Assembly (NCBI GenBank): GCA_964626205.1
Contig: CAZVED010000005.1
Location: 31,603-95,602, forward strand
DNA length: 64,000 nt
Reading direction: 5' to 3'
Source of the DNA: an uncultured Gammaproteobacteria bacterium
GTDB lineage: Bacteria; Patescibacteriota; Patescibacteriia; SG8-24
Under the pieces are notes generated by a model. That model searched no databases and was not told the DNA's origin. It worked only from the letters and a program-made list of their open reading frames with translations. Positions 1,097 to 63,578 of this stretch are shown here, piece after piece. How positions within the stretch are numbered: position 1 is the stretch's first letter; every line of letters starts with the position of its first letter. Made by a program: the position numbers and the translations under genes.

Positions 1097-1191
1097 TGCC
1101 GTCATGCTACGGCATGGAACGATGTGGGACAAGATGCGAAAACGCGATGTATCAAAAAAGTATTCATATGAAAAAACGATACCTTCTCTCC

Positions 1192-1236
1192 TGTCATTGC
1201 GAGGGTCGACGTACTCGTCGGTCCGCGGCAATGACA
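1192..1236. repeat. Palindromic element E1: TGTCATTGC-GAG-[GTCGACGTACTCGTCGG hairpin]-TCCGCG-GCAATGACA. Short member of the TGTCATTGCGAG family
   Basis: 9-bp terminal inverted repeat tgtcattgc/gcaatgaca enclosing an inner cgacg-tact-cgtcg hairpin. Shares the TGTCATTGCGAG end and the tcg-tact-cg hairpin with E3 (63485-63578). Confidence 0.55.
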
Positions 1237-1249
1237 AAATGGGTATCGT

Positions 1250-2143
1250 TTATCGTCCGGGAGCGATGTACACCGACAGGTCGAGGATGTTGATATCCGG
1301 CATGACTTCGATGCGCGTCACGGTCGGCAGCGGCGTGAACCAAGACGCCTCCACGGCACGACGTTCTCCTGCCATGAGACGGCTGATGGTGACATACTGC
1401 ACGCCAACGGCCTGCTGACCGGCGTAGGCGGTGACAAAAAACCCGGCGGAGTAGTAGCTGAAGGCCGTACGATTCACGACCGTGAACGACGCGCGCCCGA
1501 CCGACGACGCCGCGTCCACTGCTGGCGGAACAAAGACCGCGCCTTCGATGCCGATGTCGAGGCGGCGTGCGGCCCAGTCGCGGTATCCCGGAAAGACGAG
1601 ATGCGGATCGACACGTTCCCACCGCAGATTGCTGATGACGGTCCGCGCAGATGACGGACGCGCCTCCGCACGGACGCCGAGCGCATGGATGCGCTTGGTC
1701 TCTCCCGGAAGGAGGAAGCCGCGCTTCGCCGGAACGGTCATGCCGGGAGCGTCGAAGTGGTAGTCGAATGTCGCCATCCAGTTCTCGTTCGGATTCGTCG
1801 CGCGTGCGAAGAGATCGTAGCGCCCATCACCGGACGGCAGGATTGTCGCGTCCTCGAACAGGAGAGCCGTCTTGGCGCCGTACTGACGGAACGTCTCGAC
1901 CGGCACGCCGATGTGGCGGATGGTCGCGGCATCACGACGCTCCTGCACGCCGGAGACGAAGAACCAGTCGATGAACCCCCACGACGCGTACGCGAAGAGC
2001 GAGCCCGCGACGATACCGAGCAGGACGGTACCGACCTTCCTGACCAGCACCTGATGGGTCACCCACCAGTACCCCAATGACAGCTGTCCTTCATCAAGCT
2101 TTTCTCCTGTCGGATCGAATGCCATATAAAGGAAGTGTAGCAT
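1250..2143 (-). CDS. hypothetical protein with N-terminal transmembrane segment (start possibly at internal Met ~2125)
   Basis: 297-aa ORF. Hydrophobic segment VGTVLLGIVAGSLFAYASWGFIDWFFV near the N-terminus. No recognisable family. Confidence 0.45.
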   Translation of the reverse strand: MLHFLYMAFDPTGEKLDEGQLSLGYWWVTHQVLVRKVGTVLLGIVAGSLFAYASWGFIDWFFVSGVQERRDAATIRHIGVPVETFRQYGAKTALLFEDATILPSGDGRYDLFARATNPNENWMATFDYHFDAPGMTVPAKRGFLLPGETKRIHALGVRAEARPSSARTVISNLRWERVDPHLVFPGYRDWAARRLDIGIEGAVFVPPAVDAASSVGRASFTVVNRTAFSYYSAGFFVTAYAGQQAVGVQYVTISRLMAGERRAVEASWFTPLPTVTRIEVMPDINILDLSVYIAPGR

Positions 2144-8179: not shown

Positions 8180-8196
8180 ATGACGGAATAGCGGCC

Positions 8197-8255
8197 ATCT
8201 CGGGGTACAACTTTTTGTCGAGCCATAGTCTCGCCAAAAAGTGTACCCGTCGTGC
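8197..8255. repeat. 59-bp palindromic element, copy A (inverted partner at 16307-16365, 58/59 identical)
   Basis: atctcggggtacaactttttgtcgagccatagtctcgccaaaaagtgtacccgtcgtgc. Itself an imperfect hairpin (ggggtacaactttttg / caaaaagtgtaccc) with inner stem cgag-ccatagt-ctcg. Confidence 0.85.
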
Positions 8256-8413
8256 CCGCCCCTATCCGTCACACTTCTACCTCAACGTCACCTGAGCACG
8301 TCGAACCGAAAGCGACCGATATCGAAAAGCGCATCCATGCGGGTGCGCTTTTCGCATTGACGGAAAACGCTTCTCATGCCCAAGATACGCACGCACCGCA
8401 AGGAGGTCTTTCC

Positions 8414-9902: not shown

Positions 9903-10469
9903 TCACGTAGGAAAGAAGAGAATCGTCATCCCGAACACTGCACGTGACGCACGGAGGAACTGCCCCCATGAACGGACCTGTACCTCGCTCTGTGCCGGAT
10001 CGAGATACCACACCCTACGATGCGATGCCGCCACAAGAACGACGTAATGTGGCTCTGGTGACGACTCCTCGTTACCATGCAGGACGTTCACGTCGACGCT
10101 GGCAATAACCGGTCTGCGCGCGGAAAGCTCTCGCATGACCATCGGACGCGTGAGCGTTCCGGATACGACCGTGCCGCCGACATCGACGTACGCGGACGAA
10201 AGCGCTTTAACGATGCTATATGCATCCTTCGACGCCTGCAGACGCACCTCGGTCTTCACGCCACAGCTCGCAAGCCACGCGGCGATGTCGAACGGAGAGC
10301 ACCCCTGCCAACCGGTCGACGTCGTGTTCCAAGAGAACTCCTTCGCGATATCCGCAAGCGGAACCTCCGCTCCGGTCAGGTAAGCATTCACCATGCCTGC
10401 GCACGCAGGCCCACACCACCGCGAGCTTTCTGGCTGCATGAGCAAAGGGATAGAAAGGAACGTCGGCAT
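9903..10469 (-). CDS. papain-like cysteine peptidase, C39-like (Peptidase_C39_2) domain protein
   Basis: Candidate catalytic Cys in SRWCGPACAGMVNAY and His in EPHYVVLVAAS, with the spacing and context typical of C39-like peptidases. Confidence 0.5.
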   Translation of the reverse strand: MPTFLSIPLLMQPESSRWCGPACAGMVNAYLTGAEVPLADIAKEFSWNTTSTGWQGCSPFDIAAWLASCGVKTEVRLQASKDAYSIVKALSSAYVDVGGTVVSGTLTRPMVMRELSARRPVIASVDVNVLHGNEESSPEPHYVVLVAASHRRVWYLDPAQSEVQVRSWGQFLRASRAVFGMTILFFPT

Positions 10470-16245: not shown

Positions 16246-16306
16246 AGCAAAACAAGTTCGGGAGTTCTCGTAGAATATGGCACGCGCGTCCGATATGAGG
16301 AGGTGA

Positions 16307-16365
16307 GCACGACGGGTACACTTTTTGGCGAGACTATGGCTCGACAAAAAGTCGTACCCCGAGAT
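16307..16365. repeat. 59-bp palindromic element, copy B (reverse complement of copy A at 8197-8255, one mismatch)
   Basis: gcacgacgggtacactttttggcgagactatggctcgacaaaaagtcgtaccccgagat is the reverse complement of copy A except for a T/C at one position. Confidence 0.85.
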
Positions 16366-16411
16366 GCTCACCATTCCTCCCCAAAAGACACTCGTGCTAT
16401 ACTATTTCCAT

Positions 16412-34378: not shown

Positions 34379-36790
34379 TCAACCGCGCACTGTCGCGCCG
34401 ACAACAGCAGCGAGTTCGGCGGTGACCTTGGTCATTTCGACATCCACGTCTTCGGAACGCAGCGTCCGGTCCGAAGCGCTGAATGCAAGATGGACAGCGA
34501 CGGACTTCTTCCCTTCCGGGAGTCCCGTGCCGTGATAGACATCGAACAATGTAACATCAGTCAACAACGGCGATGCGGAACGGGCCGCTTCTTCGATGCG
34601 CCCGTATTCCGTGCCCATGTCCACCACGACGGCAAGGTCGCGGAAGATGGACGGGAATTGCGGCACCGGCGCATACACATGGCTGCGGCGACCAGCTGCG
34701 AGCACGTTCGCAAGAAGAAGCTGGCAGACCACCACACGACTACGGATACCGAACGCCGAGACGATATCTGGGTGTACCTCGCCGAGCTTGCCGAGCACCG
34801 TGCCACCGAACGAAACCTCCACCGTGCGTCCTGGGTGCCACTTCGCGTCATCCGTGACGCGACGGTATACCAACCCATGCATACCCTCCCCTGCGGCGTA
34901 CGTCTCCAACACGCCTTTCAGTTTGCGGAAATACCGATCTCCGTCCTCTGGTCCGTAAGCCACGGCAATCATGCGCGGCTGTTCTTCCGGAAGGCCGTCC
35001 GTTCGTTTCTTGTATGCGTTCCCGATCTCGAAACATTCCCCCTCCGGGAACAAGCCCTCGTTCTCCGCAACGGCCGTAAGAACGCCCGGAACGAGACAGT
35101 TGCGCATCACTTCGAAATCCTTGGAAAGCGGGTTCGCGACGGCGAGCACCTCATCACCCATGCGAAGCGACTTCTCGAGCGTCTCACGTGCGACGAACGC
35201 GTACGTCATAAGCTCGGTGAAACCGGCGCCTTTGAGCATGGAGCGAACGCGGCCTTCGGCCTCGAAAAGCGGGTCCGGCGCGACCGCAGGAAGCGTGCCG
35301 GTCGGCAAAACGGCTGGAAGGTTGTGGTAGCCGTAAATACGCGCGATTTCTTCCGCGAAGTCGCGTTCATCTTCGATATCGTTCGCGCGCCAGAACGGCA
35401 CGGTCACCTCGTAGGCACCCTTCTTCCCTTCGAGCGTGAAGCCGAGCGCTTCCAAAATTGCGACCATGCGCTTCTCCGGGATGGTGACGCCGATGATTTC
35501 CTCGGCCTTTGCCGTACGGAACGGGAAACGGAGCGGCGCGCGCCCTGTCGCATGGTCGTCGATACCCTCGCTCACGACTTCGGCGCCGCAGATTTCCTGA
35601 GCAAGTTCGACAGCACGAGCGAGCGCGAAAGCCGTCTGCTCTTCAGGAAGCCCTTTCTCGAAGCGAAGGGAGGAATCGCTGTGGAGATTCAAAGCGCGGC
35701 CTGTGCGGCGCACGGAAACCGCATCGAACGTGGCGGACTCGAAGACGACGGTCGTCGTCGATGCCGTCACACCGGTCTCCTCGCCGCCCATGATGCCAGC
35801 AACGGCAATCGGGCGTTCCGCGTCGGCGATGATGAGCTGACCGGAAGAGAGCTCGTACTCCTTGCCATCCAAAGCGAGGAGCTTCTCGCCGTCAGCAGCC
35901 ATGCGGATGACGATGCCGTTGCCGCGAAGCTTGTCGTAGTCGAAGGCGTGCATCGGCTGGCCGAGTTCGAGCATGACATAGTTCGTGATGTCGACGAGCG
36001 CGTTGATGGGGCGGATACCGGCCATGCGTAAACGGTTCTTGATGTGCCACGGCGACTCCCCGACCGGATGCGAAAGCGACATAACGACGGCCTGATATCG
36101 GGTACACAGTTCCGGAGAGCGGTTGTCGAAGGACACGTCCTTGCGATCGCCTTTCGGCTTACCTGGCTCCTTGGACGGCTTCCAGATGAACTTGGCGTCC
36201 AGAATGGCGGCTGCTTCGCGTGCGAGACCGACCATGGAGAACGCATCTGGGCGGTTCGTCGTCACCTCGATGTCGATGACCGTATCCTCCAGCTGCAACG
36301 CCTCTGCGATGCTCGTGCCTGGTTTCGCCTTAGTCCACGAAAGGTCGAGGATCTCTTTCTCCGCGTGCGGAAAGACCTCGCCAAGACCGATCTCGTTGGC
36401 GCCGCAGACCATACCCGCGGACTTCACGCCCTGAATCTCTGCCTCCGCGAGTTCAATAAGGTCGCCCTCACCATGCCAGCGCACCTTGGAACCCACGAGC
36501 GCAACGGCAACGAGCATTTCCGGCTCGAGGTTGGAACCGCCGCAGACAAGCTCAAGACTCCCCTGCGCGCCAAGGTCCAGCGCCACGATGCGGAGCTTCG
36601 TAACCTTCGGATTCGGATGCGCCTTCACCTCGACGATACGGCCGACGACCATCTTGTCGAACAGCGGCGCCTGCGGATACAGACGTTCGGCACCCGGGCC
36701 GCACAACGCGATGCGCTTCGCGAACTCACGAGCATCGAGGTCCGTGGCGACGAATTCCTTGATCCAGTTGTAAGAGGCTTGGATGTTCAT
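34379..36790 (-). CDS. pheT: phenylalanine--tRNA ligase beta subunit
   Basis: 803 aa. N-terminal tRNA-binding domain (MNIQASYNWIKEF...), B3/4, B5 and FDX-ACB domains. Downstream of pheS. Confidence 0.95.
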   Translation of the reverse strand: MNIQASYNWIKEFVATDLDAREFAKRIALCGPGAERLYPQAPLFDKMVVGRIVEVKAHPNPKVTKLRIVALDLGAQGSLELVCGGSNLEPEMLVAVALVGSKVRWHGEGDLIELAEAEIQGVKSAGMVCGANEIGLGEVFPHAEKEILDLSWTKAKPGTSIAEALQLEDTVIDIEVTTNRPDAFSMVGLAREAAAILDAKFIWKPSKEPGKPKGDRKDVSFDNRSPELCTRYQAVVMSLSHPVGESPWHIKNRLRMAGIRPINALVDITNYVMLELGQPMHAFDYDKLRGNGIVIRMAADGEKLLALDGKEYELSSGQLIIADAERPIAVAGIMGGEETGVTASTTTVVFESATFDAVSVRRTGRALNLHSDSSLRFEKGLPEEQTAFALARAVELAQEICGAEVVSEGIDDHATGRAPLRFPFRTAKAEEIIGVTIPEKRMVAILEALGFTLEGKKGAYEVTVPFWRANDIEDERDFAEEIARIYGYHNLPAVLPTGTLPAVAPDPLFEAEGRVRSMLKGAGFTELMTYAFVARETLEKSLRMGDEVLAVANPLSKDFEVMRNCLVPGVLTAVAENEGLFPEGECFEIGNAYKKRTDGLPEEQPRMIAVAYGPEDGDRYFRKLKGVLETYAAGEGMHGLVYRRVTDDAKWHPGRTVEVSFGGTVLGKLGEVHPDIVSAFGIRSRVVVCQLLLANVLAAGRRSHVYAPVPQFPSIFRDLAVVVDMGTEYGRIEEAARSASPLLTDVTLFDVYHGTGLPEGKKSVAVHLAFSASDRTLRSEDVDVEMTKVTAELAAVVGATVRG

Positions 36791-36892
36791 AGGGGTGTCA
36801 TTGCGAGGGCCTTTAGGCCCGAAGGCCGGGCCACTATCTTTTTTCTAACGTAGCCCGGCACCCCGCCCTTAGGCGGGTCAATCCCGTTGGTA
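36791..36892. repeat. Structured element E2 of the TGTCATTGCGAG family, filling the pheS-pheT intergenic spacer
   Basis: tgtcattgcgag + gggcctttaggccc hairpin + gccgggc...gcccggc hairpin + cccgcccttaggcggg hairpin. About 24 nt (ttgcgagg-gcctttaggcc-cgaagg) nearly identical to E3. Confidence 0.55.
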
Positions 36893-37951
36893 TCAGAATT
36901 GTTTCAAAAACCGGAAGTCGTTCTTATAGAGGTCGCGGATGTCGTCGATCTTGAGACCGGACTTCATCATCATCGTGCGCTCCACACCCCAACCGAACGC
37001 GAACCCGCCCCACTCCTCCGGATCGATGCCGCCGGCCTTGAGGACGTTCGGGTGCACCATGCCGGCGCCACCAAGCTCCAACCAACCGTCCTTGCAGAGG
37101 CGGCACGCACCGGAGTCGGTCGCACCCGTGCCATTACACACACCGCAGGAAATATCGACCTCGAAACTCGGTTCCGTGAACCGGAAGTGGTACGGCCGCA
37201 GGCGCGTCACGCGTCCTTTGCCGAAGAACGATTCCGCGAAATAGTCGAGCACGCCCTTGAGGTGCGTGACGGAGACGCCCTTATCGATGAGCAGCCCTTC
37301 GAACTGGTGGAACATCGGCACGTGCGAAACGTCGATCTGGCGGCGGTAGCACTTGGAAACGTTCACCATGCGGATGGGAAGTTTCCCCTTCTCCATTTCG
37401 CGCACCTGACCGGAACTCGTGTGCGGGGTCAGTACCATGCGGCCGTACTTCTCGGACGCCGGAGCATCCATGAAGAACGTCTCCCATTCGTCACGAGCCG
37501 GATGATCTGATGGCATGTTGAGCCCCTCGAACGCATACCATTCCCACTCGACCTCCGGATGCCGCACGCGGTTGAATCCGATACGCGAAAGGATGCCGAC
37601 GATTTCCTCGACAGCCTGATTGACGAGATGAACGCTCCCTTCCGGCGGACGCGCACCCGGAAGCGTGACGTCAATCCACTCGGTCTCCGCAAGCGCACCA
37701 CGCGCGGCACTCTTAAGCGCGCGGGTCTTTTCCGCGACCGCAGCGTCGAGCTCTTCCTTGATGGCATTGGCATGCGCACCGGCCTCTTTGCGCTCCTCCG
37801 GCGCCAAAGCTCCGAGGCCCTTGAGCGCGACGTTGAGCTCGCTCTTGCGGCTCAGGTGCTCCAAAGAGAACGCGTCGAGCGCATCCAAAGAATCCACGCC
37901 GGCAAGCGCGTCGAGAATCTGCTGTTTGATGGCATCAAGTCGGTCTTTCAT
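36893..37951 (-). CDS. pheS: phenylalanine--tRNA ligase alpha subunit
   Basis: 352 aa. Class II core (FRPSYFPFTEPS, GWGFGIERL-type motifs). Confidence 0.95.
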   Translation of the reverse strand: MKDRLDAIKQQILDALAGVDSLDALDAFSLEHLSRKSELNVALKGLGALAPEERKEAGAHANAIKEELDAAVAEKTRALKSAARGALAETEWIDVTLPGARPPEGSVHLVNQAVEEIVGILSRIGFNRVRHPEVEWEWYAFEGLNMPSDHPARDEWETFFMDAPASEKYGRMVLTPHTSSGQVREMEKGKLPIRMVNVSKCYRRQIDVSHVPMFHQFEGLLIDKGVSVTHLKGVLDYFAESFFGKGRVTRLRPYHFRFTEPSFEVDISCGVCNGTGATDSGACRLCKDGWLELGGAGMVHPNVLKAGGIDPEEWGGFAFGWGVERTMMMKSGLKIDDIRDLYKNDFRFLKQF

Positions 37952-37956
37952 AGGTA

Positions 37957-39069
37957 TCAGGCGCCGATAGCGGTCATCATGGCGTTCCAGATGGCATCGC
38001 CGTAGCGGACGAAGTCCCTATAGGTAATCACGACGATGAGCAAAAGCAAGAGGCTGAACCCGATGTTGTGGGCGGCAATCTCGACCTTGCGGTTCACCTT
38101 GCCGCGACGGACCCACTCCATGAGGAGGAACGCGAATCGTCCGCCGTCGAGCGCGGGAATGGGCAGGATGTTGATGACCGCGAGATTGATGGACAGAAGC
38201 GCCGTGAACTGGAGAAGGTGGCGGAACCCCTGCGCTGCGACCTCGCCGGTGATGACCGCGATGCCGAGCGGTCCGGAGAATTCCACGCCGACCGGACGCG
38301 CGGAGAACAGGTTCACGATGATACCGGCGAACGCGGAAAGAATCTGCGTGGTGAGTCCGTAAACGGCATAGGCTCCTTGGATGGGTGCATACCAGATCGG
38401 GTACGACACCATGCCCGTCTGAACGAGCGCGATACCGATACCCGGCTGCGACAATCCTTCGAGCGATGCAGGGACGACATCGAACGACTGCCGCTCCCCC
38501 GCGCGATCCAACGTGACGTTGATAGGGACGTCGAGGTTCGCGGCCGTGTGCTCGCGGAACGCGTCCACTGACGCGATAGGAGCACCGTCGACCTCAAGAA
38601 CCGTATCGCCCGCTTGGAACCCTGCTTCCGCGGCAGGAGACTCCGGCAGCACTTGCATCACCTGCAGACGCGCATCGCGCACGCGCGCGACACCAGGCAA
38701 GTCTTCCGCTACCTGAGGAAGGCCGATGACGTACCCGAACGACAGGAGCATCCATGCGAACACGATGTTCATGACGACGCCCGCCGTGAGCACGATCGCG
38801 CGCACGCCGACACCTTTCGCCGCAAAGCTATCCTTGTCTTCCGCGTCGTTCCCCGACTCCCCCTTGATACGCACGAAGCCTCCGAGCGGAATCCAGTTGA
38901 TGGAATACAGCGTGTCGCCACGCTTCACGCCGAACAGGCGCGGCGGAAAACCGAACCCGAACTCGTCGACGCGAATGCCGTGCCGCTTCGCCGCGAAGAA
39001 ATGCCCGAACTCATGCACGAAGATGAGTAGGCCGATGACAATGATGAACGTGAGTGCTGTAGTGATCAT
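37957..39069 (-). CDS. rseP: RIP site-2 metalloprotease (RseP/M50 family)
   Basis: HEFGHFFAAK (HExxH in a TM helix), PDZ region, LDGG motif. Polytopic. Confidence 0.88.
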   Translation of the reverse strand: MITTALTFIIVIGLLIFVHEFGHFFAAKRHGIRVDEFGFGFPPRLFGVKRGDTLYSINWIPLGGFVRIKGESGNDAEDKDSFAAKGVGVRAIVLTAGVVMNIVFAWMLLSFGYVIGLPQVAEDLPGVARVRDARLQVMQVLPESPAAEAGFQAGDTVLEVDGAPIASVDAFREHTAANLDVPINVTLDRAGERQSFDVVPASLEGLSQPGIGIALVQTGMVSYPIWYAPIQGAYAVYGLTTQILSAFAGIIVNLFSARPVGVEFSGPLGIAVITGEVAAQGFRHLLQFTALLSINLAVINILPIPALDGGRFAFLLMEWVRRGKVNRKVEIAAHNIGFSLLLLLIVVITYRDFVRYGDAIWNAMMTAIGA

Positions 39070-39851
39070 TCGAGCCGTGTTTCGATGAGCGTTATGTCGT
39101 CGGAAAGCCAGCGCGCGGCGATGTCGGCGAAGGGGCCGCTGGCGTCGCTCACGACGTACCGTCGGGAACCATCGCCGCGGAGCCCGGCCTCTGCTTCAGG
39201 ATGCGCGAGAATCCATTGTCGGAACTCCGCGACCGTCTCCCGAGCCGGGTCGACGATAGTCACATCGGGCCCGACAATCTCGCGCAACAGGGGCTCTAGG
39301 AACGCATAGTGCGTGCAGCCCAAGATGAGCGTATCGATGTCCCGTAAGAGTAGCGGTTTAAGGTAGGTCGTGGCAATGGAGCGGGCTTCGGCGGAGTCGT
39401 GCCACCCCTCCTCCACGAGCGGGACGAACAGTGGGCATGCCTGCGCATGCACGGCAACTCCAGGGGCTTCCCGTTCCATAAGGCGGGCGTAGACACCGCT
39501 CCCCACAGTGCCGCGCGTTCCAATGATGCCGACAGAACCACGCGTGACCTCAGCAGCCTTTCGTACTGCTGGAGCGATGACGTCGAACACCGGCACTGAT
39601 GACGTCGCAGCGAGGTCCTCCCCCGCGAATGCCGAAGCGGTGTTACAGGCAACAACGACCGCCTGCGCACCTTGTTCGACGAGGAACTGCGTATTTTGCC
39701 GCGCAAACCGTTTTACCGTCTCTGCGCCCTTGGGACCATACGGTGTACGCGCGGTATCGCCGAAATACGTAAAACCGTAGCCCGGCATCTGCGCTAAGAC
39801 TTCACGCACGACGGTGAGGCCACCGAGGCCAGAGTCAAAAATGCCAATCAT
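39066..39851 (-). CDS. murI: glutamate racemase
   Basis: MIGIFDSGLGGLTVVREV, VVACNTASA, ILGCTHY motifs. ATGA start/stop overlap with the upstream PGM gene. The 302-aa track ORF is over-extended. Confidence 0.88.
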   Translation of the reverse strand: MIGIFDSGLGGLTVVREVLAQMPGYGFTYFGDTARTPYGPKGAETVKRFARQNTQFLVEQGAQAVVVACNTASAFAGEDLAATSSVPVFDVIAPAVRKAAEVTRGSVGIIGTRGTVGSGVYARLMEREAPGVAVHAQACPLFVPLVEEGWHDSAEARSIATTYLKPLLLRDIDTLILGCTHYAFLEPLLREIVGPDVTIVDPARETVAEFRQWILAHPEAEAGLRGDGSRRYVVSDASGPFADIAARWLSDDITLIETRLE

Positions 39852-41269
39852 ACCTTCGCACGGATGATCGCGAGCAGTTCCTCGCGCTTCTCCTCCATGA
39901 GCGCCAAGTCGCGCGCCTCGAGGCACAAGCGCAGCAACGGTTCGGTGTTGGACGCGCGCACACTGAACCACCACAGGAAGGATCCGTCGGCGTCGGGGAT
40001 GTCCACGCGCACGCCATCGATGTCGGAAACGGTCGCGCCAGGAAGCGCGCCATACGTTTCCCGCAGCGTCGCCATGACACCATCCTTATCCTCCACTTCG
40101 GAATTAATTTCTCCGGAGTGATGGTATCGGCGCAACGGCGCGACGAGCTCGGAGAGCGGTTTACCTGTCACGGACAACATTTCGAAAACGAGCAGGAGCA
40201 CGAGGTCCGTGGAGTCCGCATTGAAGACGTCACGGAAGTAGTAGTGCATGGAAAGCTCGCCACCGAGCACTGCGCCGTGCTTGCGCATGAACGGCTTAAT
40301 GAGCCCGTGCCCTACCTTATACATGAGCGGCTTACCACCGGCCTCCTCGATTGCCTCGGGCACCGCGTGCGAGCAGCGGACATCATACACTACTGCCGCG
40401 CCTGGAGCATCGCGGAGCAGTCGCGGCGCGAGCAGGGCAAGCAGGAGGTCGCCTGGAATCGGCTCACCCTTCTCATCGACGAAACCGACACGGTCGCCGT
40501 CGCCATCATAGGCAACTCCCACATCCGCACCGATCTCGCGCACCTTGGCGCATAACGTATCCAACGTCTCAACCTTAAGCGGGTTCGCTTCGTGATTCGG
40601 AAACCTGCCGTCCAGCTCCTTGAACAACGTCGTGAGTCGCATCATCGGCATGCGCGCAAAGATATCGTCCACGAGCGCACCCTCCATGCCGTTCGCCGTA
40701 TCCACCGCGACAGTGAGACCACGAAACGTCGACGTGTCAACGAGCGAGAATACCTTATCGAGATACGCGGTTTTGATGTTCAACTCACTCGCTCCCCCGC
40801 GTGCTTCTGCATCTGGCAGCCGCCCTGCGAGCACGATATCGCGAATCTCCTTCATGCCGGTCTCCGCGCCAATGGGCGACGCGTCGCCGTAGCAGAGCTT
40901 CATACCATTGTACTGCGACGGATTGTGCGATGCCGTCACCATGATACCGGCCTCGTGTTCCGAATACGCTCCGGTCGCGAAGTAGATCATCGGCGTCGTG
41001 AGCAGTCCGCCAACGAACACGGCGTCCGCGCCCTGCGAGCGCACGCCGTCCATCACTGCTTTCGCGAGCTCAGGCGACGTTTCACGCATGTCATGACCAA
41101 CGGCGACGGTCTTCGCCTTGGTGAGTCGCACCATTGCCTGCCCGACACGGAACGCCACCTCCTCGGTAACCTCCTGTGGCGCCAATCCGCGGATGTCATA
41201 TGCCTTGAAGATGCCTGGAGAAATAGTCATGATTTTCGCTTTAATTGAGTACTTACCCCCCTTTATCAT
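39848..41269 (-). CDS. phosphoglucomutase/phosphomannomutase family protein
   Basis: GIFKAYDIRG, active-site TASHNP, GDGDGDR metal-binding loop. The start may be the Met at 41230. Confidence 0.85.
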   Translation of the reverse strand: MIKGGKYSIKAKIMTISPGIFKAYDIRGLAPQEVTEEVAFRVGQAMVRLTKAKTVAVGHDMRETSPELAKAVMDGVRSQGADAVFVGGLLTTPMIYFATGAYSEHEAGIMVTASHNPSQYNGMKLCYGDASPIGAETGMKEIRDIVLAGRLPDAEARGGASELNIKTAYLDKVFSLVDTSTFRGLTVAVDTANGMEGALVDDIFARMPMMRLTTLFKELDGRFPNHEANPLKVETLDTLCAKVREIGADVGVAYDGDGDRVGFVDEKGEPIPGDLLLALLAPRLLRDAPGAAVVYDVRCSHAVPEAIEEAGGKPLMYKVGHGLIKPFMRKHGAVLGGELSMHYYFRDVFNADSTDLVLLLVFEMLSVTGKPLSELVAPLRRYHHSGEINSEVEDKDGVMATLRETYGALPGATVSDIDGVRVDIPDADGSFLWWFSVRASNTEPLLRLCLEARDLALMEEKREELLAIIRAKV

Positions 41270-58862: not shown

Positions 58863-59674
58863 CATCCCCGCAACACCGTCACGGCCGTCACACGAAGCGC
58901 TCCGGCATCCCGGAGCGCTTTTGCGCATGCCGCGAGCGTCGACCCTGTCGTCATCACATCGTCCACGATGACGCACGACTCCGGCGCCGCGCGCAGGGAC
59001 GTGACCGCGCCACGGACGTTCTCCGACCGCAACACGCTCTCCCCCATCTCTACCTGCGTCTTGCTCGAGTACGCACGCCGGAGCAATGTGCGGTCCACAG
59101 CATGGCCGGTCGCGGCAGCAAGCGTCTCCGCGAACACGTCCGCCTGATTGAACCCACGCATCCGAAGCCTCAATGGATGCAACGGTGACGGCACAATGAC
59201 CGCCTCTGTGTCTCCCAACGTGCGAAGCTCCTCACCACGCCCGGCAAGGAACGCGGCGAACAGGTCCGCAAGCGCCGTCCCAGCCTCCTCGATGCCCTCA
59301 TACTTGTAGGCCTGTAGCAGTTCGCGTAGCAGCGGGTCGTTGTAAGGAGCCATGCAAAGGACACCATCTAGGCCTTCCACGTGAACAAGAAATGGTGTCG
59401 CGTTGCGTTCCAGGCCAGGCCCCTCCGGGGAGGCTAAAGTCGGAGCCGCCTCCCCGGAGGGGCCTGGCCTGGGGCGTAAGGCACCGTCAAGAGATAACGA
59501 AAAGCCTCCGATGGTGGAGGCTTTTTTTATCTCGAGACACGCAGCGCAGAGCAGAGATCCTTCCATGCGGCACCCCAGGCAAAAATGCGGAAATAGCACC
59601 GGACCGGCGGATGCAACCGCCGTCCGTACGATCCTTATTGCCGTGGTTGCCACTCCGCGGAATCCGCCATCCAT
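58862..59674 (-). CDS. comF: ComF family phosphoribosyltransferase-domain protein carrying an in-frame palindromic insertion
   Basis: N-terminal LFPHFCLGCRMEGSLLCAACLEI (ComF zinc finger), LDGVLCMAPYNDPLLRELLQAYKYEG, PRT motif VIVDDVMTTGSTL. The start codon is uncertain and overlaps the upstream gene. Confidence 0.8.
   Translation of the reverse strand: MDGGFRGVATTAIRIVRTAVASAGPVLFPHFCLGCRMEGSLLCAACLEIKKASTIGGFSLSLDGALRPRPGPSGEAAPTLASPEGPGLERNATPFLVHVEGLDGVLCMAPYNDPLLRELLQAYKYEGIEEAGTALADLFAAFLAGRGEELRTLGDTEAVIVPSPLHPLRLRMRGFNQADVFAETLAAATGHAVDRTLLRRAYSSKTQVEMGESVLRSENVRGAVTSLRAAPESCVIVDDVMTTGSTLAACAKALRDAGALRVTAVTVLRG
59410..59472. repeat. perfect inverted repeat (24-bp arms, 15-nt spacer) embedded in frame inside comF
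   Basis: ccaggccaggcccctccggggagg-ctaaagtcggagccg-cctccccggaggggcctggcctgg. Translated as ALRPRPGPSGEAAPTLASPEGPGLER in ComF. Confidence 0.8.
59498..59528. other. terminator-like hairpin (A-run, GCCTCC-gatggt-GGAGGC, T7) located inside the comF reading frame
   Basis: aaaagcctccgatggtggaggcttttttt on the plus strand. The minus strand also has an A7-hairpin-TTTTCGTT. It encodes KKASTIGGFS of ComF. Confidence 0.6.
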
Positions 59675-63484: not shown

Positions 63485-63578
63485 GTTTTTTGCGAGGCCT
63501 TTAGGCCGAAGCAATCCCGTGCGATTTCAAGACGGGATTGCTTCGGGGGTCGAGTACGACCCCACTCGCAATGACAAA
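63485..63578. repeat. Structured element E3 of the TGTCATTGCGAG family: a four-way junction closed by TTGCGAG/CTCGCAA and ending in CTCGCAATGACA
   Basis: ttgcgag-[gcctttaggc]-c-[gaagcaatcccgt gcgatttcaag acgggattgcttc]-g-[ggggtcg agta cgacccc]-a-ctcgcaatgaca. Confidence 0.6.

What the first reader, a model, noticed from the sequence alone, without database searches (positions are those of the whole stretch)
36791..36892. pheS-pheT intergenic spacer is occupied by a member of the same structured-repeat family, with no SD before pheT
In most bacteria pheS and pheT are separated by a few nucleotides. Here a 102-bp spacer contains tgtcattgcgag followed by three hairpins, read in mRNA sense as ...ctcgcaatgacacccct-AUG(pheT), with no Shine-Dalgarno sequence. 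The element is co-transcribed with pheST. It could act as an mRNA processing or stability element, or as a translational coupler or regulator of pheT.
Basis: partly seen in the sequence, partly recalled or inferred. Interest (0 to 1): 0.5.

Follow-up and report, generated by a model that had tools for sequence, protein, structure and literature searches.

The report
Palindromic repeat fragment between pheS and pheT
The 102-base gap between the two phenylalanyl-tRNA synthetase genes of this candidate-phyla-radiation bacterium is a recent insertion of a broken copy of a very widespread hairpin-forming repeat, and the missing ribosome-binding site is normal for this lineage, so the finding is real but largely ordinary.

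Summary
pheS (36893-37951, minus strand) and pheT (34379-36790, minus strand) are separated by exactly 102 nt. The gap holds TGTCATTGCGAG, three stable hairpins and no Shine-Dalgarno sequence.

- **Missing SD is the norm here.** 50 of 53 ORF starts in the window lack one. So do 68/72 pheS and 70/72 pheT starts in related Patescibacteria.
- **The spacer is not conserved.** Five of the six closest relatives (87-73% PheS identity) have pheS-pheT gaps of 1-13 nt, and the sixth has a small ORF. The 102 nt are therefore a lineage-specific insertion.
- **The spacer is one split repeat unit.** It has the form GTCATTGCGAG / mini-hairpin / CGAAG...CAATC, interrupted by a unique 54-nt, two-hairpin insert, and it lacks an inverted partner.
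- **The unit is extremely common.** In metagenomes, 82 of the 120 matches listed lie inside 121-191-bp MITEs with IS66-like ends and 8-bp target duplications. In related CPR genomes it flanks GIY-YIG genes, three times within the pheS-pheT gap.

No Rfam family, promoter or sense-strand terminator matches. The most likely reading is a co-transcribed selfish-repeat relic. It leaves the pheT AUG unpaired and has no dedicated regulatory role.

The parts
36893..37951 (-). pheS, phenylalanine--tRNA ligase alpha subunit; its TGA stop is 36893-36895
   Evidence: TIGR00468 at 262.6 bits, above the cutoff. It is 100% identical to protein P0001 from NCBI.
34379..36790 (-). pheT, phenylalanine--tRNA ligase beta subunit; its ATG is 36788-36790
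   Evidence: TIGR00472 at 652.5 bits. The N-terminus MNIQASYNW aligns from residue 1 with 72 relatives.
36791..36892 (-). 102-nt pheS-pheT spacer, a lineage-specific insertion
   Evidence: Sequence read directly. The closest relatives have 1-13 nt at this junction.
36797..36807 (+). Left box GTCATTGCGAG of the repeat unit (CTCGCAAUGAC in the mRNA); it ends 6 nt before the pheT AUG
   Evidence: Exact matches at three sites in the window. The same box occurs in L026, L031, L035 and L042 and in more than 120 viral-contig stretches.
36808..36819 (+). Mini-hairpin GGCC-TTTA-GGCC, the variable inner hairpin of the unit (hairpin 3 of the mRNA)
   Evidence: The window copy at 63496-63507 has the same hairpin. 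The variant GCC-TTTA-GGC is in more than 120 metagenome stretches. Pairing probability is about 1.
36820..36824 (+). CGAAG, first half of the right box CGAAGCAATC
   Evidence: The pattern GTCATTGCGAG-N(3-33)-CGAAG has 2 hits in the window and 0 in 100 shuffles.
36825..36878 (+). Unique 54-nt insert that splits the right box. It holds two hairpins: GCCGGGCCAC-15 nt-GTAGCCCGGC at 36825-36859 and CCCGCC-CTTA-GGCGGG at 36862-36877
   Evidence: Folds. No significant match in 2.6 Mb of fetched loci or elsewhere in the window.
36879..36887 (+). CAATCCCGT, second half of the right box plus 4 nt; identical to the continuation CGAAG|CAATCCCGT in the copy at 63487-63576
   Evidence: Read. The two copies are colinear. 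A 9-mer match alone has a chance of about 0.05 (my estimate).
63487..63576 (-). Complete long-form copy of the family. It folds as a four-way junction: closing stem, mini-hairpin, 14-bp central stem, mini-hairpin
   Evidence: As DNA it folds at -31.5 kcal/mol with z = -7.6. nhmmer E = 1e-11, from a profile this copy helped to build.
1192..1236 (+). Short-form copy, TGTCATTGC...GCAATGACA, inside a longer palindrome (1174-1251)
   Evidence: Fold z = -5.6.

Best explanation
The spacer is a decayed, solo copy of a mobile palindromic repeat unit, GTCATTGCGAG / variable mini-hairpin / CGAAGCAATC.

**Origin.** The unit landed in an ancestrally tight TGA-N-ATG junction between pheS and pheT in this Patescibacteria lineage. 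It later gained, or arrived with, a 54-nt insert of two further hairpins inside its right box.

**Present state.** It is most likely transcribed as part of the pheST mRNA, where it forms three independent stable hairpins. None is followed by a U-tract, so transcription should read through.

**pheT translation.** pheT starts without an SD, as almost every gene in this genome does. That is feasible because the last hairpin ends 16 nt before the AUG, which leaves the start region single-stranded. The insertion probably replaced stop-start coupling with independent initiation.

**Function.** It has no dedicated regulatory function. Any effect on mRNA stability or processing would be a by-product.

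**Shown:** the anatomy, the shared family boxes, the lineage-specific presence, the SD-less norm and the predicted open AUG.

**Inferred:** mobility of this particular copy, co-transcription and neutrality.
For: **Anatomy**
- The spacer reads box, mini-hairpin, CGAAG, 54 nt, CAATCCCGT.
- It is colinear with the complete copy at 63487-63576.

**The unit is widespread and structured**
- More than 120 metagenome stretches carry the spacer's own GCCTTTAGGC hairpin variant.
- 82 of those 120 lie in 121-191-bp MITEs with GTAA(C/G)CGTTCAC terminal repeats, and 51 of the 82 have exact 8-bp target duplications.
- The inner segment is a hairpin of varying sequence: 17 of 50 unique segments have a terminal stem of at least 4 bp, against 1.1 in shuffles.

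**Extra nested hairpins are a family habit**
- MITE lengths range from 121 to 191 bp. L209, L225, L227, L244 and L254 carry extra hairpins in one arm.

**Recent insertion**
- The closest relatives have gaps of 1, 1, 1, 2 and 13 nt, or a small ORF.

**The same family entered this junction independently in other lineages**
- It is in the gap in L026, L031 and L035.
- L024, at 90% PheS identity to L026, has a 3-nt gap.

**SD-less norm**
-.

**No competing signal**
- No sigma-70 promoter or sense-strand terminator is predicted in the spacer.
- The genome does use canonical hairpin-plus-T-run terminators elsewhere (I16).
- Rfam gives nothing.

**Open start codon**
- Positions -12 to +6 around the AUG are mostly unpaired (probability 0.4-0.99, about 0.8 on average).
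Against: - A profile built from five long-form copies scores the spacer at only E = 7 over 19 nt. Membership therefore rests on an exact 11-mer, a 22-of-24 match with one other copy, and a 9-mer.
- The spacer has no inverted partner, no terminal repeats and no target-site duplication, so mobility of this copy cannot be shown.
- The 54-nt insert has no relative anywhere in the data searched. Its origin is unknown.
- Six other relatives carry unrelated long palindromes at the same junction. That could mean hairpins there are selected rather than neutral.
- No expression data exist.
Confidence: 0.68

Rival explanations
1. The spacer is the relic of a GIY-YIG nuclease cassette that prefers the pheS flanks. 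A free-standing GIY-YIG gene bracketed by these palindromic units inserted at the pheS-pheT junction. The gene was later deleted, leaving one unit and some hairpins. This concerns origin and is compatible with the best explanation.
For: - L026 and L035 carry the order pheS, long unit, GIY-YIG (PF01541, E = 1e-12 and 6e-17), long unit, small membrane ORF, pheT.
- L026 ends with a solo half-unit in the same orientation 11 nt before the pheT ATG. The window's half-unit ends 6 nt before it.
- In L013 and L014 a GIY-YIG gene lies immediately upstream of pheS. In L013 it is flanked by inverted hairpin copies.
- In L288 the unit lies about 55 nt upstream of a GIY-YIG start. In L298 a sister unit does.
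- All 11 exact box hits in L026, L031 and L035 fall inside the pheS-pheT gap.
Against: - The 64-kb window has no GIY-YIG gene.
- None of the 80 viral loci has a GIY-YIG homologue at tblastn E <= 1e-3, although they hold 125 units.
- In metagenomes the unit mostly rides in IS66-like MITEs with no GIY-YIG gene.
- The six closest relatives show no cassette.
- No target-sequence preference was demonstrated.
Confidence: 0.2
2. The hairpins are a selected mRNA element. They would act as a 3' stabiliser for the pheS segment, a processing site, or an insulator that uncouples pheS and pheT translation and keeps the SD-less pheT start open.
For: - The hairpins are stable, with z = -3.8.
- The AUG region is predicted to be open.
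- Six relatives have unrelated palindromes at this junction. That is consistent with convergent benefit.
- From general knowledge, REP/BIME and Correia elements have such effects on flanking genes.
Against: - The spacer is not conserved. Five of the six closest relatives have a tight junction and the sixth has a small ORF, and 33 of 73 more distant relatives are tight.
- No orthologous copy exists on which to test covariation.
- pheS and pheT need 1:1 stoichiometry, so a differential-expression device has no obvious use.
- No Rfam family matches.
Confidence: 0.12
3. The resemblance to the family is chance. The spacer would be a locally grown set of GC-rich hairpins, for example from slippage or palindrome expansion, with no descent from the repeat family.
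For: - The nhmmer profile gives only E = 7.
- The 54-nt core is unique.
- A 9-mer match has a chance of about 0.05.
Against: - The exact 28-nt pattern GTCATTGCGAG-N12-CGAAG has 0 hits in 100 shuffles.
- The inner hairpin has the same loop, and a stem one pair longer, as a variant found in more than 120 metagenome stretches.
- The order of elements is colinear with the copy at 63487-63576.
Confidence: 0.05
4. The spacer is an intrinsic terminator or attenuator between pheS and pheT, or a terminator for antisense transcription.
For: One terminator-like site is called on the + (antisense) strand at 36816-36832, GGCCCGAAGGCCGGGCC followed by ACTATCTTTT.
Against: - None of the three sense-strand hairpins is followed by a U-run.
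- Terminator-like calls in the region are fewer than in shuffles: 2 against a mean of 5.6.
- The known pheST attenuators and T-boxes lie upstream of pheS, and Rfam finds none.
- pheT is essential and has no predicted promoter of its own.
Confidence: 0.03

Closest known systems
REP/BIME elements of enterobacteria and pseudomonads (repetitive extragenic palindromes, mobilised by RAYT transposases)
   Same: Both are short GC-rich imperfect palindromes. Both have many copies per genome and sit in intergenic sites, including inside operons. Both are co-transcribed and occur as single, inverted-pair or tandem arrangements (L128, L102 and L103 hold tandem arrays).
   Different: The spacer has no GTAG/GTGG head tetranucleotide, and no RAYT gene was seen. 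The conserved boxes are different (GTCATTGCGAG and CGAAGCAATC). The unit also occurs in phage-like contigs and inside MITEs.
MITEs derived from IS66-family insertion sequences (terminal repeats that start GTAAGCG, 8-bp direct repeats; PMC11946415, citing TnCentral)
   Same: The exact inner unit of the spacer, GTCATTGCGAG-GCCTTTAGGC-CGAAGCAATC, is the core of 121-191-bp metagenome elements. These have GTAA(C/G)CGTTCAC termini, and 51 of 82 have exact 8-bp target duplications.
   Different: The spacer and the two other window copies lack these outer terminal repeats and show no target duplication. Only the internal palindromic core is present.
Correia elements (CREE/NEMIS) of Neisseria
   Same: Both are palindromic repeats inserted between co-transcribed genes. 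Both form long hairpins in the mRNA and can change the expression of the downstream gene.
   Different: The sequences are unrelated. Correia elements have 26-bp terminal repeats, a TA duplication, an IHF site and built-in promoters. None of these is present here.
Free-standing GIY-YIG homing-endonuclease cassettes (for example the T4 seg genes)
   Same: In related CPR genomes, small GIY-YIG genes flanked by these units sit next to, or between, conserved essential genes (pheS and pheT). Close relatives lack them.
   Different: The window has no GIY-YIG gene. Endonuclease activity and target specificity are unknown. The proteins resemble the small YhbQ/COG2827 type (from my own knowledge, not tested here).

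Membership tests
GTCATTGCGAG / CGAAGCAATC palindromic repeat unit (unnamed; defined here) | Left box GTCATTGCGAG | tested here: met
   Exact at 36797-36807.
GTCATTGCGAG / CGAAGCAATC palindromic repeat unit | A variable segment directly after the left box; when it is 9 nt or longer it is usually a mini-hairpin | tested here: met
   The spacer has GGCC-TTTA-GGCC at 36808-36819. This is the widespread GCC-TTTA-GGC variant with one extra pair added on both sides.
GTCATTGCGAG / CGAAGCAATC palindromic repeat unit | Contiguous right box CGAAGCAATC | tested here: not met
   CGAAG (36820-36824) and CAATC (36879-36883) are separated by 54 nt. No contiguous box lies in the spacer. I read this as a split box, because the continuation CAATCCCGT is identical to that of the copy at 63487-63576.
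GTCATTGCGAG / CGAAGCAATC palindromic repeat unit | Significant match to a sequence profile of long-form copies | tested here: not met
   nhmmer gives E = 7.1 and 5.8 bits, over the terminal 19 nt only.
GTCATTGCGAG / CGAAGCAATC palindromic repeat unit | Inverted partner half (GATTGCTTCG ... CTCGCAATGAC); optional, present for 43 of 125 units | tested here: not met
   The partner is absent; the pheS stop codon follows directly. Solo units are the majority in viral contigs.
IS66-type MITE | Terminal inverted repeats that start GTAAGCG or GTAACCG | tested here: not met
   None lies near the spacer. The window has a single 1-mismatch hit, at 10380, which is within chance.
IS66-type MITE | 8-bp target-site duplication | tested here: not met
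   The flanks AGGGGT and CCGTTGGTA share no direct repeat.
REP/BIME | GTAG-type head next to the palindrome, and a RAYT gene in the genome | tested here: inconclusive
   No GTAG head precedes the first or third hairpin. A GTAG does occur, but inside the 3' arm of the long hairpin (GTAGCCCGGC on the + strand). No search for RAYT was made, and only 64 kb of the genome is available.
Intrinsic terminator | GC-rich hairpin followed by a U-run on the transcribed strand | tested here: not met
   No sense-strand site was called. The sequences after the hairpins are GUGCCG, CUUCGG and UCGCAA.
Known cis-regulatory RNAs (T-box, Phe leader, riboswitches; Rfam 15) | Covariance-model match | tested here: not met
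   Only tRNAs reach the gathering score in the window. The best permissive hit in the spacer is BSnc120 at 18 bits against a threshold of 114.

The most novel reading that the evidence does not exclude
GTCATTGCGAG / mini-hairpin / CGAAGCAATC, with sister units such as GTCATTTCGAG...TCGAGAAATC and GTCATCCCCGC-GAAA-GCGGGGATC, may form an undescribed, cross-phylum superfamily of hairpin units of the shape GTC-AT[stem]...[stem']AT-C.

These units would be recognised by a dedicated enzyme, possibly the small GIY-YIG nucleases they flank. They would insert preferentially at the pheS/pheT junction of CPR bacteria. On that reading the window's spacer is a footprint of targeted, repeated invasion of an essential operon, not a random repeat.
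Probability: 0.15. Interest if true: 0.6.

Novelty: new member of a known kind. Interest (0 to 1): 0.27.

Why it matters
For this locus it matters little. The spacer is a lineage-specific repeat relic, and the missing SD is a property of the whole lineage. It is not a pheT-specific regulatory device.

Three by-products are more useful:
- In this group of Patescibacteria nearly all anchored gene starts lack an SD. Insertions that break stop-start coupling are therefore tolerated.
- The pheS-pheT junction is unusually plastic in the clade. Different lineages hold small membrane-protein genes, GIY-YIG cassettes or several unrelated palindromes there.
- The repeat unit is very abundant in public metagenomes and phage-like contigs. 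It rides in IS66-like MITEs. Yet it matches no Rfam family, and I found no paper that prints it. Its translated forms probably contaminate many hypothetical-protein annotations.

Tried and rejected
- **Rfam.** I searched the whole window at gathering score, then the spacer, the L026 cassette and a canonical viral copy permissively. Nothing real came up, only generic hairpin (miRNA-precursor) hits.
- **Literature.**
  - A search for the box sequences returned only unrelated PCR primers.
  - Searches combining GIY-YIG, palindromic and intergenic, or CPR and repetitive, returned nothing relevant.
- **Own contig.** Exact look-up of the window's PheS and of its 100% match P0001 found no record. The rest of this genome could not be examined.
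- **The 54-nt insert.** Pattern searches and blastn-short against 2.6 Mb of loci found no relative.
- **GIY-YIG in the window.** tblastn found none.
- **A protein partner.** Clustering 413 ORFs next to units in viral loci gave only phage structural genes, with no nuclease or transposase.
- **Promoter supplied by the element.** No sigma-70-type site is predicted, and I saw no TANNNT box at leaderless distance by reading the sequence.
- **Small ORF in the spacer.** Only ORFs of 21-24 aa, with no support.
- **Decay of a small membrane-protein gene.** I considered this but judged it unlikely, because five of the six closest relatives have tight junctions and only the 74% relative has a small ORF.

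Full report
**Observation**

On the minus strand the window encodes murI (39066-39974), rseP (37957-39069), pheS (36893-37951, TIGR00468) and pheT (34379-36790, TIGR00472). pheS ends with TGA at 36893-36895 and pheT starts with ATG at 36788-36790. The spacer is therefore exactly 36791-36892, 102 nt.

Both gene ends are secure.
- PheT residue 1 aligns with residue 1 of PheT in 72 related loci, and there is no in-frame start further upstream.
- Relatives end pheS at the same ...RFLKQF position with TAA, TAG or TGA. UGA is therefore a stop codon here.

In mRNA sense the spacer folds into three clean hairpins:
- CCCGCC-UAAG-GGCGGG
- GCCGGGCUAC-15 nt-GUGGCCCGGC
- GGGCC-UAAA-GGCCC

These are followed by UCGCAAUGACACCCCU-AUG. 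The minimum free energy is -51 kcal/mol, z = -3.8, and none of 200 shuffles folds as well. TGTCATTGCGAG occurs exactly three times in the window, at 1192 (+), 36796 (+) and 63576 (-). No SD motif precedes pheT.

**Organism**

The best PheS relatives are MAGs labelled Patescibacteria, Parcubacteria or Uhrbacteria (some records carry other, probably erroneous, labels). A 100% identical PheS exists in NCBI (P0001), but its contig could not be retrieved. The next relatives are 87, 80 and 75% identical.

**The missing SD is the rule in this lineage**
- In the window, 50 of 53 greedily chosen ORF starts have no GGAG, GAGG or AGGA in the 20 nt upstream. This set includes pheS and rseP.
- In the 80 related loci I anchored starts by alignment to residue 1. 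There, 68 of 72 pheS starts and 70 of 72 pheT starts lack an SD.

An SD-less pheT is therefore not a feature of this spacer.

**The spacer is not conserved**

The closest relatives keep the murI-rseP-pheS-pheT order. Their pheS-pheT junctions are:

| PheS identity | Relative | pheS-pheT junction |
|---|---|---|
| 87% | L081 | TGAtATG, 1 nt |
| 80% | P0003 | 1 nt |
| 75% | L082 | TAGcATG, 1 nt |
| 74% | P0010 | a 121-aa ORF |
| 73% | P0005 | 2 nt |
| 73% | P0011 | 13 nt |

The 102 nt are therefore an insertion specific to this lineage, into an ancestrally tight junction.

More widely the junction is very plastic. Of 73 related loci:
- 33 have gaps of 20 nt or less;
- 7 have 21-120 nt;
- 22 have 121-500 nt, mostly small membrane-protein ORFs, one type EamA-like;
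- 11 have more than 500 nt.

Six relatives carry long palindromes there. Five are unrelated to this family (L021, L038, L065, L070, L077) and one belongs to it (L031).

**Anatomy of the spacer, + strand**

| Coordinates | Sequence or feature |
|---|---|
| 36791-36796 | AGGGGT |
| 36797-36807 | GTCATTGCGAG |
| 36808-36819 | GGCC-TTTA-GGCC |
| 36820-36824 | CGAAG |
| 36825-36878 | 54-nt insert with two hairpins |
| 36879-36887 | CAATCCCGT |
| 36888-36892 | TGGTA |
| 36893-36895 | TCA, the pheS stop codon |

The complete copy at 63487-63576 has this order: GTCATTGCGAG, mini-hairpin, CGAAGCAATCCCGT, loop, ACGGGATTGCTTCG, GCC-TAAA-GGC, CTCGCAA. It folds as a four-way junction with z = -7.6.

Read on its other strand, that copy gives TTGCGAG-GCCTTTAGGC-CGAAG-CAATCCCGT. 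This is colinear with the spacer apart from the 54-nt insert and one extra G-C pair in the mini-hairpin. The spacer is therefore one half-unit with its right box split.

GTCATTGCGAG-N(3-33)-CGAAG occurs only at these two sites in the window and never in 100 shuffles.

There are caveats.
- A profile of five long-form copies scores the spacer at only E = 7.
- The 54-nt insert has no relative in 2.6 Mb of fetched sequence.

**What the family is**
- **In related CPR loci.** The long form (about 85 nt) and short form (about 32-45 nt) occur in L026, L031 and L035, always inside the pheS-pheT gap. They also occur just downstream of pheT in L042.
  - In L026 and L035 two long units bracket a GIY-YIG gene (PF01541), which is followed by a small membrane ORF.
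  - L024, at 90% PheS identity to L026, has a 3-nt gap. These insertions are therefore recent and independent of the one in the window.
  - Of 125 units, 43 have an inverted partner. The rest are solo, often just upstream of phage genes, and some form tandem arrays.
  - The inner segment is a hairpin of varying sequence: 17 of 50 unique segments have a stem of at least 4 bp, against 1.1 in shuffles.
  - No recurrent nuclease or transposase lies next to the units.
  - 82 of the 120 matches lie in complete 121-191-bp MITEs with termini GTAA(C/G)CGTTCAC...GTGAACG(G/C)TTAC.
  - 51 of those 82 have an exact 8-bp target duplication.
  - These are the hallmarks given for IS66-family ends (PMC11946415).
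  - The longer MITE variants carry extra nested hairpins in one arm, for example L209, L225, L227, L244 and L254. This is the same kind of growth as the 54-nt insert.
- **In the window.** The window's copies lack these outer termini.
- **In databases.** No Rfam family matches and no paper prints the box.

**How it most likely works**

No sigma-70 promoter and no sense-strand terminator are predicted in the spacer. The genome does have canonical hairpin-plus-T-run terminators elsewhere (I16). I therefore infer read-through transcription.

Partition-function folding of the mRNA gives pairing probabilities near 1 for the three hairpins. Positions -12 to +6 around the AUG are mostly unpaired, with unpaired probabilities of 0.4-0.99. 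That is the condition SD-less initiation needs, on general knowledge.

The simplest account is a selfish palindromic unit that survived in the only non-lethal position between two essential genes. It replaced stop-start coupling with independent SD-less initiation and persists as a passenger. I put this at about 0.68.

The rivals are:
- a relic of a GIY-YIG cassette with a preference for the pheS flanks (0.2; this concerns origin and is compatible with the main account);
- a selected stabiliser, processing site or insulator (0.12);
- chance resemblance (0.05);
- a terminator or attenuator (0.03).

**Verdict**

The finding is real and the family assignment is essentially right, as a degenerate member. 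The SD argument and the regulator hypothesis are not supported.

It is a new member of a known kind, the intergenic palindromic repeats and MITE cores. Interest is low to moderate. It is raised somewhat by the abundance and apparent anonymity of the unit, and by the repeated colonisation of the pheS-pheT junction in CPR bacteria.

Noticed in passing
window 8185-8260 (+) and 16302-16377 (-): A 76-nt inverted pair, 91% identical, of a different repeat family (hairpin GGGTACA...TGTACCC). Both copies lie in intergenic positions.
   Followed up: no
window 59400-59482: A palindrome with 35-nt arms, 89% complementary, separated by 13 nt (I2).
   Followed up: no
window 1174-1251: The short-form copy at 1192-1236 sits inside a longer palindrome (AACGATACC.../...GGTATCGTT). 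An A-run precedes it and a T-rich tail follows. It looks like a bidirectional terminator.
   Followed up: partly
L009-L014, L019, L020, L022, L027: about 20 nt upstream of pheS: A conserved TTAAAGT-type -10-like box ends about 6 nt before the pheS ATG, and there is no SD. This suggests leaderless or near-leaderless transcripts in this CPR clade.
   Followed up: no
pheS-pheT gap of L001, L005, L006, L008, L012, L057 and of L009-L011, L013, L014, L061: Two families of small membrane proteins (about 110-125 aa) are inserted between pheS and pheT, usually with overlapping or adjacent stop and start codons. One has a WVLMLVDC...GLHWLSALLYY motif and no Pfam match above the cutoff. The other is EamA-like (PF00892).
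   Followed up: partly
L013 3560-3910 (also L014): A GIY-YIG gene lies immediately upstream of pheS on the opposite strand. In L013 it is flanked on both sides by inverted copies of the hairpin CCACCCCGGCGGAGGCCGGGG, an architecture that looks like a mobile cassette.
   Followed up: partly
L203-L322 (JGI sediment metagenomes Ga0315xxx and Ga0307xxx): A high-copy 139-bp MITE with IS66-like ends and 8-bp target duplications. Dozens of near-identical copies sit in different flanking sequence, and the core is the GTCATTGCGAG unit.
   Followed up: partly
L081 3916-3963: The contig of the closest relative with DNA available (87% PheS identity) ends about 30 nt into pheT, inside a sister hairpin unit (GTCATCCCCGCGAAAGC). 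This is either an assembly break at a repeat or an insertion in the pheT start.
   Followed up: no
L298 3904-3943: A sister unit, GTCATTTCGAG...TCGAGAAATC, lies upstream of a GIY-YIG gene. Its closing stem covaries with the family studied here (ATTGC/GCAAT against ATTTC/GAAAT), which hints at a superfamily of units.
   Followed up: no
L128 2695-2818; L102 28-101; L103 5117-5172: Tandem arrays of the 25-31-nt unit with a period of 30-43 nt in viral contigs. The spacing is too short for CRISPR.
   Followed up: no
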